From: Escherichia coli
Lineage (GTDB): Bacteria > Pseudomonadota > Gammaproteobacteria > Enterobacterales > Enterobacteriaceae
Reading direction: 5' to 3' (one strand)
Assembly (NCBI RefSeq): GCF_029227855.1
Contig: NZ_CP074356.1
Length of the DNA stretch: 64,000 nt
Positions 34,301-37,300 of this stretch are shown piece by piece. The first letter of the stretch is position 1. Each line of letters begins with the position of its first letter. The position numbers are program-made.

Positions 34301-37300
34301 GAAGCACAGGTATTGCGTCTGGCGGCGGCGCTGGAGCAAGGTTCCAGCCATCCTCTGGCACGGGCGATCCTCGATAAAGCAGGCGATATGCAGCTGCCGC
34401 AGGTCAATGGCTTCCGCACATTGCGCGGGCTGGGCGTGAGCGGCGAAGCTGAAGGTCATGCGTTGTTGTTGGGTAATCAGGCGCTGTTAAATGACCAGCA
34501 AGTTGATACTAAAGCGATTGAGGCAGATATTTCAGCTCAGGCATCGCAAGGGGCAACGCCTGTGCTGCTGGCGGTTGACGGGAAAGCGGTAGCCCTGCTG
34601 GCTGTACGCGATCCATTGCGTAGTGATAGCGTGGCGGCGCTGCAACGCCTGCATAAAGCGGGATATCGTCTGGTGATGCTAACCGGGGATAACCCAACCA
34701 CCGCCAATGCGATCGCCAAAGAAGCAGGGATTGATAAGGTGATAGCCGGGGTGCTGCCGGACGGTAAAGCCGAAGCGATCAAACGTCTGCAAAGTGAAGG
34801 ACGTCAGGTGGCAATGGTGGGCGATGGCATTAACGACGCGCCAGCGCTGGCTCAGGCGGATGTCGGCATTGCAATGGGTGGCGGCAGTGATGTTGCCATT
34901 GAAACCGCGGCGATTACCCTGATGCGCCATAGCCTGATGGGTGTTGCGGATGCGCTCGCGATTTCCCGCGCAACGCTGCGCAATATGAAGCAGAACCTGC
35001 TCGGCGCGTTTATCTACAACAGTATCGGTATTCCGGTCGCCGCCGGTATTTTGTGGCCGTTCACCGGTACGCTGCTTAACCCGGTGGTCGCCGGAGCGGC
35101 AATGGCGCTCTCGTCGATTACCGTAGTGAGTAACGCCAACCGGTTACTGCGGTTTAAACCGAAAGAGTGATTGGTATTTACTTAATGCGTTTGTGAGATC
35201 CAGTTCTTGTTGCGCTCCTTTTATGAGTCATGCCATATAAAGTGACTGGCGCAGGGAGCGCGCAGGGGGCGGCCAATCGCCGCCGCCCCCTGCACCCCCG
35301 GGCTCTGGCGAACAAAATCGCCGCTGCGCGGTACCCTCAGCTTATCCCTTGCGGCTACCGGGTCGGGCGCGAGGTAACATATATGGACGCTCCCGGAATG
35401 CAATGCTTTCTTCAGTTATGTAATAAAACGGGTAGGTGCAGCCATATATCCGGTTTCTGATGGGATTTTTATCCCGAACCATGATGAAATCCGCCAGGCA
35501 GGTACCAATCATCCTCTACGGGCTAACTTGCCCTTGTTACCTCTCGGTGTATCCTGCCTGCGGTCTTACCTGTTTTGCCATCTTCTGAAGTCACTTGCAC
35601 CTACCAGGACGTTAACTTTTTTTCAGCACCTCGTCAGATTGACTGACCTTGTGTCAGGCGAGCTGCCGAGGTTGATATTCAGTATTGTGTGACAATATTG
35701 ACCACATGATCCTCGCTGTTTTTGCCGCCATGGCGACAACAGCTACATTGTAGTGCTTCCGCTCAAGGAGTCCCTGAAGCCAGGAATTCTCCTCAACCGC
35801 GCCGTTTCGGTTGACCCAGGCGGTAAGTGCGCGTGCGCCGTGAACCAGCAGGTATCGGAAATATCCATCTCCACGTTTGCTGATTCCTCCCAGTTGCTGT
35901 TTCCCGCCGCTGGAATGTTCCTTTGGTGTCAGCCCCAGCCATGAAGCGAACTGCTTTGCGGTACTGAATTGTCGGGCATTACCCACTGCTGCTACCACAT
36001 AAGTGGCCGTTAGCATGCCAACCCCCGGGATCTTGGCCATTCTCTGGCAGGCTTCCTGCGTTCTATACCAGGAGGCCAGAGCTTCTTCTACCTGTTTAAC
36101 TTGTTCTTCAAGTTCCCGGATATGTTTAGACTGTCTGTAGATGCTGGTTCTGACAAAGGGAGATAAACCATTTTCGCCATCCTCCAGAATGGCTGGCAGC
36201 TCACGGGTTAAATGGTTTTGTCCGGCCGCAATCGTAATACCAAACTCAGCAAGTGTGGCTCTTAAACTATTGGCACAGGCAATCCGCTCACGGATAAGTA
36301 TTCCCCGTTCAGTGTGTAACGCTAAAACGGCCTGCTGCTCTTCGGTTTTTATCTGAACAAAACGCATATTCGGACGGGTTACCGCTTCGCAGATTGCTTC
36401 AGCATCTGCTGCATCCGTCTTGTTCGTTTTCACATAAGGCTTCACATACTGCGGAGGTATGAGTTTTACCTCATGACCATAGCGGGTGAATAATCGCGCA
36501 AAATAATGACTGGATGAGCAGGCTTCCATGCCAATCAGACAAGGTTCCAGTTGAATCACAAACTGAACAAACTTAGCCCGGGTGAGCTTTTTACGCAAAA
36601 TAGTATGGCCTTCATGATCGACACCATGAAGCTGAAAAACGTTCTTTGCCAAGTCGATACCAAGAGTTGATACTTTCATGTGGACGCTCCTAATTTTTCA
36701 GGACGTATTGCAACGATCCAGTCTGGTACTTTGATACCGTAAAATCTGGAGCGTCCATCTCATTATCCCTGTAAAACGCGCCCTCAGCCCACATCCATGT
36801 GGGCTGCCCCGGCCTTCAGGGAACGCCTCGGCGATTTTGACGCCACCAACACCGGTGCAGTCTTTCGTTTCAAAGCAAAAACAATTTTTCGATCATATTT
36901 AAGCTACCACTGAACAAGCCTCATAACTCCATTTGCGCCATCCCTCCCCGCGCGCTAGCATGATATTTCACAAAGGGAGGTCGTATGGATCTGTTGTACC
37001 GGGTAAAAACGCTTTGGGCCGCGCTGCGCGGTAATCATTACACCTGGCCTGCTATCGATATCTCTCTTCCCGGCAATCGCCATTTTCATCTGATTGGCAG
37101 TATTCATATGGGCAGCCACGATATGGCTCCCCTGCCCACCCGTTTGCTCAAAAAGCTCAAAAACGCCGATGCGCTGATCGTCGAGGCGGATGTTTCCACC
37201 AGCGATACGCCTTTTGCTAATTTGCCTGCCTGCGAGGCGCTGGAAGAGCGCATTAGCGAGGAGCAACTCCAAAACCTGCAGCACATTAGCCAGGAGATGG

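What the first reader, a model, noticed from the sequence alone, without database searches (positions are those of the whole stretch)
35384..36860. IS110-family element inserted in the copA-ybaP spacer
A 341-aa DEDD-type IS110 transposase (35654-36679, minus) with ~200-300 bp of non-coding flanks lies between copA and ybaP; the copA stop to ybaP start distance is 1,814 bp. Members of this family are known to insert site-specifically, some into REP sequences. The insertion sits next to the copper efflux gene and near chiX, so polar or promoter effects on neighbours are possible.
Basis: partly seen in the sequence, partly recalled or inferred. Interest (0 to 1): 0.5.

Follow-up and report, generated by a model that had tools for sequence, protein, structure and literature searches.

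The report
Known RNA-guided insertion sequence ISEc81
This is an intact copy of ISEc81, a catalogued E. coli insertion sequence of the RNA-guided IS1111 type, sitting at its usual landing site in the loop of a hairpin inside a small repeated intergenic element; the finding is real but ordinary.

Summary
The 341-aa ORF (35654-36679, minus) is real. It encodes an IS110-family DEDD transposase that differs at 4 of 341 residues from the ISfinder ISEc81 protein. The element is 1,384 bp (35381-36764) and is flanked by a duplicated AT. It does not span 35384-36860: the remaining sequence is two halves of a 271-bp host repeat that the IS split. An E. coli genome (strain A10) carries the same copA-ybaP spacer without the IS at 100% identity over 514 bp, and 347 of 5,426 complete genomes carry this empty allele. 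K-12 has a different allele with ybaQ here. ISEc81 belongs to the IS1111 subgroup. It has 11-bp subterminal inverted repeats, a 273-nt non-coding region downstream of the gene, and a 135-nt two-loop bridge/seek RNA (35437-35571, minus). The RNA's stems covary across 17 relatives, and its loop strands match the target (GAGGUAACA / GGAUG) and the element's ends. Every insertion I examined, at four E. coli intergenic loci and in Kluyvera, lies at the same AT in the same repeat. The target hairpin resembles Rfam's orphan TwoAYGGAY motif, scoring 31 bits against a threshold of 43. Close relatives (ISYen1, ISEch3) also insert after (A/C)A(G/T)GGAT in hairpin loops. Verdict: a known element with a known mechanism class, and low interest apart from the target link.

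The parts
35381..36764 (-). ISEc81 copy. It is 1,384 bp between the two AT core copies; the circular or inserted unit is 1,386 bp including one core.
   Evidence: Occupied versus empty comparison at aqpZ-lysO and at copA-ybaP. Full-length matches at 99% identity or more occur in 175 of the 182 matching records from 179 complete E. coli genomes.
35379..35380 (.). AT core dinucleotide at the RE (right-end) junction. It is present once in the empty site.
   Evidence: The empty site reads GGTAAC-AT-CCCTG. The occupied site has AT on both sides of the IS.
36765..36766 (.). AT core dinucleotide at the LE (left-end) junction; this is the second copy.
35654..36679 (-). Transposase gene, 341 aa. It has a DEDD/RuvC-like N-terminal domain and a Transposase_20 C-terminal domain. 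Proposed catalytic residues are D9, E52, D89 and D92. The motif GLTPKEHSSG lies at residues 249-258.
   Evidence: The protein differs at 4 of 341 residues from the ISfinder ISEc81 protein.
36748..36758 (-). Left subterminal inverted repeat (ATGGACGCTCC in element orientation), preceded by the 6-nt terminal extension AATGAG (36759-36764).
   Evidence: Read directly from the sequence. The same ATGGAC... subterminal repeats occur in relatives.
35383..35393 (-). Right subterminal inverted repeat (GGAGCGTCCAT in element orientation), followed by the 2-nt extension AT (35381-35382).
35437..35571 (-). Predicted bridge/seek RNA core, 135 nt, with two internal-loop modules. It lies in the 273-nt non-coding region downstream of the transposase gene.
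   Evidence: RNAalifold on 17 relatives gave 29 pairs, 17 of them with compensatory changes. The sequence is unchanged among the E. coli copies compared.
35495..35560 (-). Target-binding loop. The closing stem is CAGGCAGG/CCUGCCUG. The 5' strand GAGGUAACA (35535-35543) is complementary to T+GTTACCTC to the right of the insertion point. An inner hairpin GGGC-AAGUUA-GCCC follows. The 3' strand GGAUG (35510-35514) is identical to GG-AT-G of the target; with a bulged A it reads AG(A)GGAUG.
   Evidence: In a self versus non-self control, the 5' strand gave a mean longest match of 6.9 nt against its own flank and 3.8 nt against other flanks.
35438..35494 (-). Probable donor-binding loop. The closing stem is GCGG/CUGC. 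The 5' strand AUUUCAU (35484-35490) is complementary to LE nt 2-8 (ATGAGAT, including one G.U pair). The 3' strand AUAUAU (35444-35449) is identical to the RE end plus core (AT|AT|AT).
   Evidence: The covariation is real but weaker than for the target loop.
35205..35380 (-). 3' part (176 bp) of the 271-bp host repeat that the IS split. It contains one arm of the target hairpin (GGGCGCG at 35365-35371 on the plus strand).
36767..36861 (-). 5' part (95 bp) of the same host repeat. It contains the other hairpin arm (CGCGCCC at 36777-36783 on the plus strand) and the first hairpin, GCCCACAUGGAUGUGGGC.

Best explanation
The feature is an intact and probably active copy of ISEc81, an IS1111-subgroup member of the IS110 family. 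It inserted by RNA-guided, site-specific recombination into a resident copy of a 271-bp structured repeat in the copA-ybaP spacer.

Proposed mechanism, following the experimentally studied relatives ISEc11, ISPa11, ISKpn4 and IS621:
1. The element excises as a 1,386-bp circle whose junction reads ...GTCCAT-AT-[AT]-AATGAG-ATGGAC... This junction creates a sigma-70 promoter (TTGCAT, 16 nt, TATAAT) that drives the transposase gene and its 3' non-coding region.
2. A 135-nt RNA from that region binds the DEDD transposase.
3. One internal loop of the RNA pairs with both strands of the target, 5'-(A)GGG-AT-GTTACCTC-3'. Nine nucleotides pair with the top strand to the right of the core, and 5-7 nt pair with the bottom strand to the left, overlapping at the core.
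4. The second loop pairs with the abutted element ends.
5. Strand exchange at the AT core integrates the circle and leaves AT on both sides.

Shown here: the identity of the element, its boundaries, the core, the empty site, the recurrent target, the conserved and covarying RNA structure, and guide-flank matching across relatives. Inferred: circle formation, RNA processing and binding, and the chemistry.
For: Identity. NCBIfam NF033542 'IS110 family RNA-guided transposase' scores 357.6 bits against a cut-off of 140. Pfam domains are present. The protein matches the ISfinder ISEc81 protein at 337 of 341 residues. Durrant et al. list ISEc81 as IS1111 group with the bridge RNA predicted in the RE (right end).

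Boundaries and precise insertion. See; strain A10 matches the empty site at 100% over 514 bp, and 347 genomes carry the empty allele.

Mobility. The element is in 179 of 5,426 complete genomes, at 1-4 copies, with 99% identity or more. It was found at copA-ybaP, aqpZ-lysO, asmA-yegH and yohP-dusC, always at the same AT and in the same orientation within the repeat. It is also in three copies of this repeat in Kluyvera.

IS1111 features. It has 11-bp subterminal repeats, a 273-nt downstream versus an 85-nt upstream non-coding region, the motif GLTPKEHSSG, and a length of 341 aa. These match the criteria in PMC11187229.

RNA. There are 29 conserved pairs, 17 with compensatory changes. The 5' loop strand equals the reverse complement of the right flank, and the 3' loop strand equals the left flank, in relatives that have different targets.

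Other. The junction promoter is predicted only in the circle, and the scan finds no promoter-like site on the minus strand of the integrated region. The ends and RNA region are identical to those of copies at other loci.
Against: No experiment exists for ISEc81 itself; the papers that name it only list it.

The 3' target guide is short in ISEc81. It has 5 contiguous nt, or 7 if an A is bulged, whereas more distant relatives have 9-12 nt.

Covariation in the donor loop is weak, because the element ends are conserved among relatives.

Near-identity of copies across genomes could partly reflect horizontal transfer or homologous recombination between repeat copies rather than frequent transposition. 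IAI39 shows hybrid flanks.
Confidence: 0.87

Rival explanations
1. The IS did not transpose into this spacer. Instead it was copied in by homologous recombination or gene conversion from another occupied copy of the 271-bp repeat, for example the aqpZ-lysO copy. The 176-bp and 95-bp repeat arms would have supplied the homology.
For: The repeat arms are 93-94% identical to the K-12 copies at other loci, and the IS plus arms are 99% identical to the occupied aqpZ-lysO copy. The window IS differs from the aqpZ-lysO copy in L001 by only 2 nt. IAI39 has an IS with a yohP flank on one side and a lysO flank on the other, which shows that copies do recombine.
Against: Both flanks in the window are 100% identical to the empty copA-ybaP allele of strain A10 right up to the AT. 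They also carry that locus's own variants (GGTACCCTCAGC, against GGTGCCCTCGAC at aqpZ-lysO). A conversion tract would therefore have to end exactly at the IS ends. Transposition into the preferred site is simpler.
Confidence: 0.08
2. The copy is an immobile relic: a fossil transposase gene that no longer moves.
For: The scan finds no sigma-70-like promoter on the transposase strand in the integrated state. The copy number is low, at 1-4 per genome.
Against: The ORF is full length with only 4 substitutions relative to the reference. The subterminal repeats are perfect. The RNA core and ends are identical to other copies. Presence or absence varies at four or more loci among closely related genomes. 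In this family, lack of a promoter in the integrated state is the expected off state (PMC11187229).
Confidence: 0.04
3. It is an IS110-proper element like IS621, with the guide RNA encoded upstream of the transposase and REP sequences as its target.
For: PDB hits include the IS621 transposase at E = 1e-7.
Against: The upstream non-coding region is only 85 nt, and the conserved structured RNA lies downstream. 11-bp subterminal repeats are present. Published tables place ISEc81 in IS1111 with the RNA in the RE. The REP-derived Rfam model naRNA4 hits elsewhere in the window but not in this spacer.
Confidence: 0.01

Closest known systems
ISEc81 (ISfinder; IS110 family, IS1111 group)
   Same: The transposase is the same at 337 of 341 residues and has the same length. 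Durrant et al. list ISEc81 with the bridge RNA predicted in the right end.
   Different: There are four substitutions: T91A, R288W, K297E and M328I. The ISfinder DNA entry could not be compared. I found no published description of this element's target or guide sequences.
ISEc11 (IS1111 family; seekRNA shown experimentally, Siddiquee et al. 2024, PMC11187229)
   Same: It shares the architecture: subterminal inverted repeats, a downstream non-coding region that gives the guide RNA, the top-strand match 5' of the bottom-strand match, a promoter formed at the circle junction, and a transposase of about 340 aa.
   Different: Its target is GTGAAAATACTG and it is 1,443 bp long. Its protein sequence was not compared here. 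ISEc81's function is inferred, not tested.
ISYen1 (Yersinia enterocolitica) and ISEch3 (Dickeya)
   Same: They are the closest named relatives, at 67.5% and 63.9% aa identity. They have identical subterminal repeats (ATGGACGCTCC) and the same RNA scaffold. The left half-target, (C)A(G/T)GG-AT, is the same and usually sits in a hairpin loop. The 3' guide, (A)GGGAUG, is conserved.
   Different: The right half-target and the matching 5' guide differ. ISEch3 has TTCGCCGCGT against ACGCGGCGAA, and ISYen1 has GAGCCGCC against GGCGCGGCTC. Their host repeats also differ.
IS621 / ISCro4 (IS110 group; bridge RNA and cryo-EM structures 8WT6, 9T56)
   Same: Both have a DEDD plus C-terminal Ser recombinase and a two-loop guide RNA that reads both strands of target and donor around a 2-nt core.
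   Different: In these elements the RNA is encoded upstream (left end), they have no long subterminal repeats, the strand order of the guides is reversed, and the IS621 core is CT with REP as target. Sequence similarity is detectable only in the C-terminal domain (E about 1e-7).
TwoAYGGAY RNA motif (Rfam RF01731), for the target repeat and not for the IS
   Same: Three uninterrupted E. coli copies of the repeat align over the full model (positions 1-168). They show a long outer stem that encloses two adjacent hairpins with loops CAUGGAUG and CAGGGAUG.
   Different: Scores of 30.6-31.5 bits are below the gathering score of 43. The second loop is AGGGAU, not AYGGAY. The E. coli element is longer, at 271 bp, with an extra GC hairpin and a stem that sequesters a Shine-Dalgarno-like (ribosome-binding) sequence.

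Membership tests
IS110 family | Transposase with an N-terminal DEDD (RuvC-like) domain and a C-terminal Transposase_20 domain | tested here: met
   Pfam PF01548 (1e-14, residues 6-146) and PF02371 (4e-24, residues 211-289). NCBIfam NF033542 scores 357.6 bits against a cut-off of 140.
IS110 family | Catalytic D-E-D-D residues and a conserved Ser-Gly in the C-terminal domain | tested here: met
   E52, D89/D92 (TDAADA) and the SG of GLTPKEHSSG align with the ISCro4 transposase 9t56. D9 lies in GIDLAK at the start of the Pfam match. Catalytic roles are inferred by homology only.
IS110 family | Site-specific insertion with a shared 2-nt core and no longer target duplication | tested here: met
   The empty site reads CAGGG-AT-GTTACC, and the occupied site has AT on both sides. 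The net gain is 1,386 bp. The same site was found at every locus examined.
IS1111 subgroup | Subterminal inverted repeats of 7-17 bp with short terminal extensions | tested here: met
   The 11-bp repeats ATGGACGCTCC / GGAGCGTCCAT lie at 36748-36758 and 35383-35393, with extensions of 6 nt and 2 nt.
IS1111 subgroup | The longer non-coding region lies downstream of the transposase gene | tested here: met
   273 nt downstream against 85 nt upstream. The criterion is from PMC11187229.
IS1111 subgroup | GL-P----S/TG motif and a transposase of 330-350 aa | tested here: met
   GLTPKEHSSG at residues 249-258; 341 aa.
IS1111 subgroup | Guide RNA from the downstream region, with the top-strand match 5' of the bottom-strand match and the two matches overlapping in the target | tested here: met
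   GAGGUAACA is complementary to the top strand and lies 5' of GGAUG, which is complementary to the bottom strand; they overlap at T-G of the core. Homologous positions covary with the flanks in relatives. This is computational evidence only.
IS1111 subgroup | Circular intermediate whose junction forms a promoter | tested here: inconclusive
   The predicted junction gives TTGCAT-16-TATAAT, with the -10 element spanning RE, core and LE. The existence of the circle cannot be tested with these tools.
IS1111 subgroup | The RNA co-purifies with the transposase and is required for transposition | not testable with these tools
   This is shown for ISEc11, ISPa11, ISKpn4 and ISPst6 (PMC11187229), not for ISEc81.
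ISEc81 (same element or isoform) | Near-identity to the ISfinder reference | tested here: met
   The protein matches at 337 of 341 residues.
   The REP-derived Rfam model naRNA4 hits at 1301-1378 and 43538-43615 but not in this spacer. No repeat feature is annotated in the K-12 copies. The target is a 271-bp repeat present at about 2-4 copies per genome.
TwoAYGGAY RNA (RF01731), for the target repeat | Score at or above Rfam's gathering threshold | tested here: not met
   Scores are 30.6, 30.9 and 31.5 bits against a threshold of 43. Neighbouring Kluyvera and Serratia hits score 37.7 and 32.7 bits.
TwoAYGGAY RNA (RF01731), for the target repeat | Two adjacent hairpins with AYGGAY terminal loops inside an outer stem | tested here: inconclusive
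   Hairpin 1 has an AUGGAU loop. Hairpin 2 has AGGGAU, with a purine at position 2. The outer stem is present, and 14 of 87 pairs in the whole repeat show a compensatory change among 8 copies.

The most novel reading that the evidence does not exclude
The ISEc81/ISYen1/ISEch3 clade of IS1111 elements may be specialised on AYGGAY-type hairpin loops. All members keep a near-invariant 3' target guide, (A)GGGAUG, that reads the conserved loop (C)A(G/T)GG-AT. Only the 5' guide is retuned to the species-specific stem sequence. If so, the orphan TwoAYGGAY motif (function unknown since 2010) and its enterobacterial look-alikes are the natural landing pads of this clade. The look-alikes are the 271-bp E. 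coli/Kluyvera repeat and the Yersinia/Pectobacterium repeat, which hits Rfam Ysr224. The target hairpin would then mimic the donor, where the subterminal repeats form a stem with the core in the loop.
Probability: 0.45. Interest if true: 0.4.

Novelty: already known. Interest (0 to 1): 0.22.

Why it matters
For this genome it matters little. It is a routine polymorphic insertion of a catalogued IS, and RefSeq already labels it 'IS110 family RNA-guided transposase'. It has no demonstrated effect on copA, ybaP or chiX.

Three modest points may be useful.
1. ISEc81 now has exact ends, a core (AT), a 12-bp target footprint (GGATGTTACCTC) and an explicit two-loop guide RNA. It could therefore be tested as a natural E. 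coli bridge/seek-RNA recombinase.
2. Its target is a rare, structured repeat (2-4 copies per genome) that resembles the orphan TwoAYGGAY motif. This gives that motif its first biological association.
3. IS copies in these repeats appear to mediate chromosome rearrangement, as in IAI39.

Tried and rejected
- K-12 as the empty site. This failed: K-12 has ybaQ and unrelated sequence where the window has 35164-36912. The aqpZ-lysO locus and then a synthetic empty site were used instead.
- Rfam on the IS non-coding region. No family matched at E up to 1, so the IS1111 guide RNA is not in Rfam 15.
- The 7-nt match GGGAUAA in the non-coding region as the left-junction guide. I rejected it because it lies in a hairpin stem, is not at the position homologous to the guide in relatives, and is expected by chance.
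- My first estimate of the subterminal repeat coordinates (35384-35394 and 36750-36760) was off by 1-2 nt and has been corrected.
- Similarity between the 271-bp repeat and the IS, which would suggest the repeat is a miniature derivative of it. None was found at word size 7.
- A conserved small protein downstream of the repeat's Shine-Dalgarno-like (ribosome-binding) sequence. The ORFs are 3-27 aa and are not conserved across copies.
- Consensus scan for promoters and terminators. The counts did not exceed the shuffled controls, and no promoter-like site lay on the transposase strand.
- Supplements of PMC11187229 searched for the target sequence of ISEc81. It was not present.
- The second IAI39 junction was not located, because no tool lists all places within a single record.
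Full report
**1. What is in the sequence**

The window carries copA (32666-35170, plus strand) and ybaP (36985-37779, plus strand). They are separated by 1,814 bp. Within that spacer a 341-aa ORF lies on the minus strand at 35654-36679. The protein has Pfam DEDD_Tnp_IS110 and Transposase_20 domains. It scores 357.6 bits on NCBIfam NF033542, 'IS110 family RNA-guided transposase', against a cut-off of 140. It also matches the solved ISCro4 and IS621 transposases in the C-terminal domain. chiX/sroB is at 37778-37861 on the minus strand.

**2. Boundaries and the empty site**

K-12 is not an uninterrupted version of this locus. Its homology to the window stops at 35163 and resumes at 36913, and in between K-12 has ybaQ.

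The same 1.66-kb block (35204-36858) occurs in other genomes between aqpZ and lysO. Comparing that occupied locus with K-12's empty aqpZ-lysO spacer shows a 1,384-bp insertion with a 2-bp overlap. The empty site reads ...GGTAAC-AT-CCCTG..., and the occupied site has AT on both sides.

Transferred to the window, the IS is 35381-36764, with AT at 35379-35380 and 36765-36766. I then joined 35101-35380 to 36767-37000 to make a synthetic empty site. It is 100% identical over 514 bp to E. coli A10, and 347 of 5,426 complete genomes cover at least 80% of it in one piece. So the IS entered a pre-existing allele of the copA-ybaP spacer. At least nine complete genomes share the occupied state, one of them (JNEC-KY178) at 100% identity.

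**3. Which element it is**

The protein differs at four positions from the ISfinder ISEc81 transposase, whose sequence is given in the supplement of Siddiquee et al. 2024. It is 67.5% identical to ISYen1 and 63.9% identical to ISEch3. Durrant et al. 2024 list ISEc81 as IS1111 group with the bridge RNA predicted in the right end. Papers that name ISEc81 only list it among mobile elements.

The anatomy fits IS1111:
- perfect 11-bp subterminal inverted repeats (36748-36758 and 35383-35393), with a 6-nt and a 2-nt terminal extension;
- 85 nt of non-coding sequence upstream of the ORF and 273 nt downstream;
- the motif GLTPKEHSSG;
- a length of 341 aa (criteria).

**4. Distribution and target**

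The IS alone is found in 179 of 5,426 complete E. coli genomes. There are 337 places, 1-4 per genome, nearly all at 99% identity or more.

Sampled copies lie at copA-ybaP, aqpZ-lysO, asmA-yegH and yohP-dusC. They are always at the same AT and in the same orientation within one repeat. Three copies in Kluyvera genomosp. 3 sit in the same repeat. In 173 genomes the best copy is flanked by the repeat on both sides.

The repeat is 271 bp (35205-35380 plus 36767-36861). It is present in 5,425 of 5,426 genomes, typically at 2-3 copies.

In the orientation of the transposase, the target reads GGGCGCG-UUUUACAGGG-AU-GUUACCU-CGCGCCC. This is a 7-bp stem with the insertion point in the loop.

**5. The guide RNA**

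In relatives at 40-72% aa identity that have different flanks, the downstream non-coding region contains two matching segments at homologous positions:
- an 8-10-nt segment equal to the reverse complement of the right flank;
- about 25 nt further 3', a segment identical to the left flank.

An alignment of 17 such regions gives a consensus structure of 29 pairs, 17 of which have compensatory changes. The structure is two stacked internal-loop modules.

In ISEc81 the RNA core is 35571 to 35437 on the minus strand (135 nt).
- Module 1 has the closing stem CAGGCAGG/CCUGCCUG. It carries GAGGUAACA, complementary to T+GTTACCTC, and GGAUG, identical to GG-AT-G (or AGGGAUG if an A is bulged).
- Module 2 has the closing stem GCGG/CUGC. 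It carries AUUUCAU, complementary to left-end nt 2-8 (ATGAGAT), and AUAUAU, identical to the right end plus core.

These module 2 positions covary with the element ends in relatives. Examples are AUGUCAU with ATGACAT, AUCUUAU with ATAAGAT, and AUACAA with ...AT|ACAA.

A self versus non-self control on longest exact matches gave these means:

| Loop strand | Own flank or end | Other elements' flanks or ends |
|---|---|---|
| Target loop, 5' strand | 6.9 nt | 3.8 nt |
| Target loop, 3' strand | 8.1 nt | 4.8 nt |
| Donor loop, 3' strand | 6.0 nt | 4.3 nt |
| Donor loop, 5' strand | 5.7 nt | 5.0 nt |

The target loop is therefore well supported and the donor loop only probable. The strand order (top-strand match 5' of bottom-strand match, overlapping at the core) is the one reported for IS1111 seekRNAs.

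**6. Expression logic**

Abutting the ends gives ...TTGCAT-16 nt-TATAAT, with the -10 element built from the last base of the right end, the AT core and the first three bases of the left end. My hexamer scan of the integrated left junction found no comparable promoter, and the consensus scan finds no promoter-like site on the transposase strand in the integrated region. This matches the junction promoters described for ISEc11 and ISEc21.

The window copy differs from the other E. coli copies compared at 0-8 positions, none in the ends or the RNA core.

**7. Rival readings**

Gene conversion from another occupied repeat copy is possible in principle. It is disfavoured because both flanks are the native copA-ybaP allele right up to the AT.

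A dead relic is unlikely given the intact ORF, ends and RNA, and the presence/absence polymorphism at several loci.

An IS621-like organisation is excluded by the anatomy.

**8. The target repeat (side finding)**

All three uninterrupted E. coli copies match Rfam TwoAYGGAY (RF01731) over the whole model at 30.6-31.5 bits, below the gathering score of 43. The matches show hairpins ACA-UGGA-UGU and ACA-GGGA-UGU, and the IS sits in the second. Eight copies fold into 87 consensus pairs, 14 of which show a compensatory change.

Close relatives of ISEc81 all insert after (C)A(G/T)GG-AT, usually in a hairpin loop. Examples:
- ISYen1: CCGCGCC-AGGGAT-GGCGCGG at seven of the Yersinia loci sampled;
- Serratia: AAAATCGCC-ATGGAT-...GGCGATTTT;
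- Jejubacter: a homologous hairpin with a different stem.

They keep a conserved 3' guide, (A)GGGAUG. This suggests, but does not prove, that the clade is specialised on AYGGAY-type loops.

**9. Verdict**

This is a correct call of an ordinary, already catalogued RNA-guided insertion sequence. The corrections are to its right boundary, its subgroup, its target and the K-12 comparison. The novelty is confined to the explicit guide and target assignment for ISEc81 and the possible link to the TwoAYGGAY motif.

Noticed in passing
window 35205-35380 + 36767-36861 (minus strand); uninterrupted copies at L004 4016-4286, L011 3119-3387, L047 about 1605-1875: The 271-bp host repeat split by the IS gives full-length but sub-threshold hits to Rfam TwoAYGGAY (30.6-31.5 bits; gathering score 43). 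It folds into a very stable structure of 87 consensus pairs, 14 with compensatory changes. It ends in a stem GCGCUCC...GGAGCGC that sequesters a Shine-Dalgarno-like (ribosome-binding) AGGAG, followed by ATG/GTG and tiny, non-conserved ORFs.
   Followed up: partly
window 35164-36912 versus K-12 L003 (ybaQ region): The copA-ybaP spacer is dimorphic in E. coli. K-12 and most genomes carry ybaQ (an HTH protein) here. About 6.5% of complete genomes carry the 271-bp repeat instead, on the same strand that ybaQ occupies in K-12. There is no trace of one allele in the other.
   Followed up: partly
L005 / L008 / L009 (asmA-yegH locus of strains 746, EM10-18-28, 624), locus positions 1838-2500: At asmA-yegH the repeat lies directly 5' of an annotated truncated RelE/ParE toxin gene and an HTH gene, on the same strand. 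K-12 keeps only a 50-bp fragment of the repeat there. The repeat may be a decayed leader of a higBA-like toxin-antitoxin cassette.
   Followed up: no
L006 (E. coli IAI39, NC_011750.1 900648-907031): One ISEc81 copy has the yohP-side flank on one side and the lysO-side flank on the other. This implies a roughly 1.3-Mb inversion between the copies at yohP-dusC and aqpZ-lysO. The reciprocal junction was not located.
   Followed up: no
L010 (E. coli N3) and L016 (Kluyvera); uninterrupted allele in L059 (SK1144) 1501-1791: In two independent insertions the left junction has core AT and the right junction has AC. An uninterrupted repeat allele with AC in the loop (CAAGG-AC-GTTACC) exists. The element therefore tolerates a mismatch at the second core position, and the two junctions keep donor-type and target-type cores respectively.
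   Followed up: partly
L010 (E. coli N3) 3886-3991 and 4354-4459: yohP and the 5' 106 nt of the repeat are tandemly duplicated next to the IS. In the N3/SK1144 type of yohP-dusC allele the repeat is inverted relative to K-12, and it is followed by a 27-aa ORF (MMKLNKRFIVSDKLRFHYYRSLSISMA).
   Followed up: no
L053 1983-2098, L056 and L057 1953-2048, L056 578-680 (all minus strand): The flanks and ends of the ISYen1-like elements in Yersinia and Pectobacterium give sub-threshold hits to Rfam Ysr224 (28-52 bits; gathering score 70). This suggests that the host repeat these relatives target was recorded as a Yersinia sRNA.
   Followed up: no
L014 1172-1235, L016 1174-1237, L055 357-433 (minus strand): Additional TwoAYGGAY-like double hairpins (37.7 and 32.7 bits) lie within about 250 bp of the IS-bearing repeat in Kluyvera and Serratia. 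Such elements therefore cluster.
   Followed up: no
L071 / L072 (Salmonella enterica relative, 54% aa identity): This more distant relative sits immediately downstream of a group II intron reverse transcriptase gene (RVT_1 + GIIM). Its left half-target is different (GGTGGT), and its 3' guide matches that sequence.
   Followed up: no
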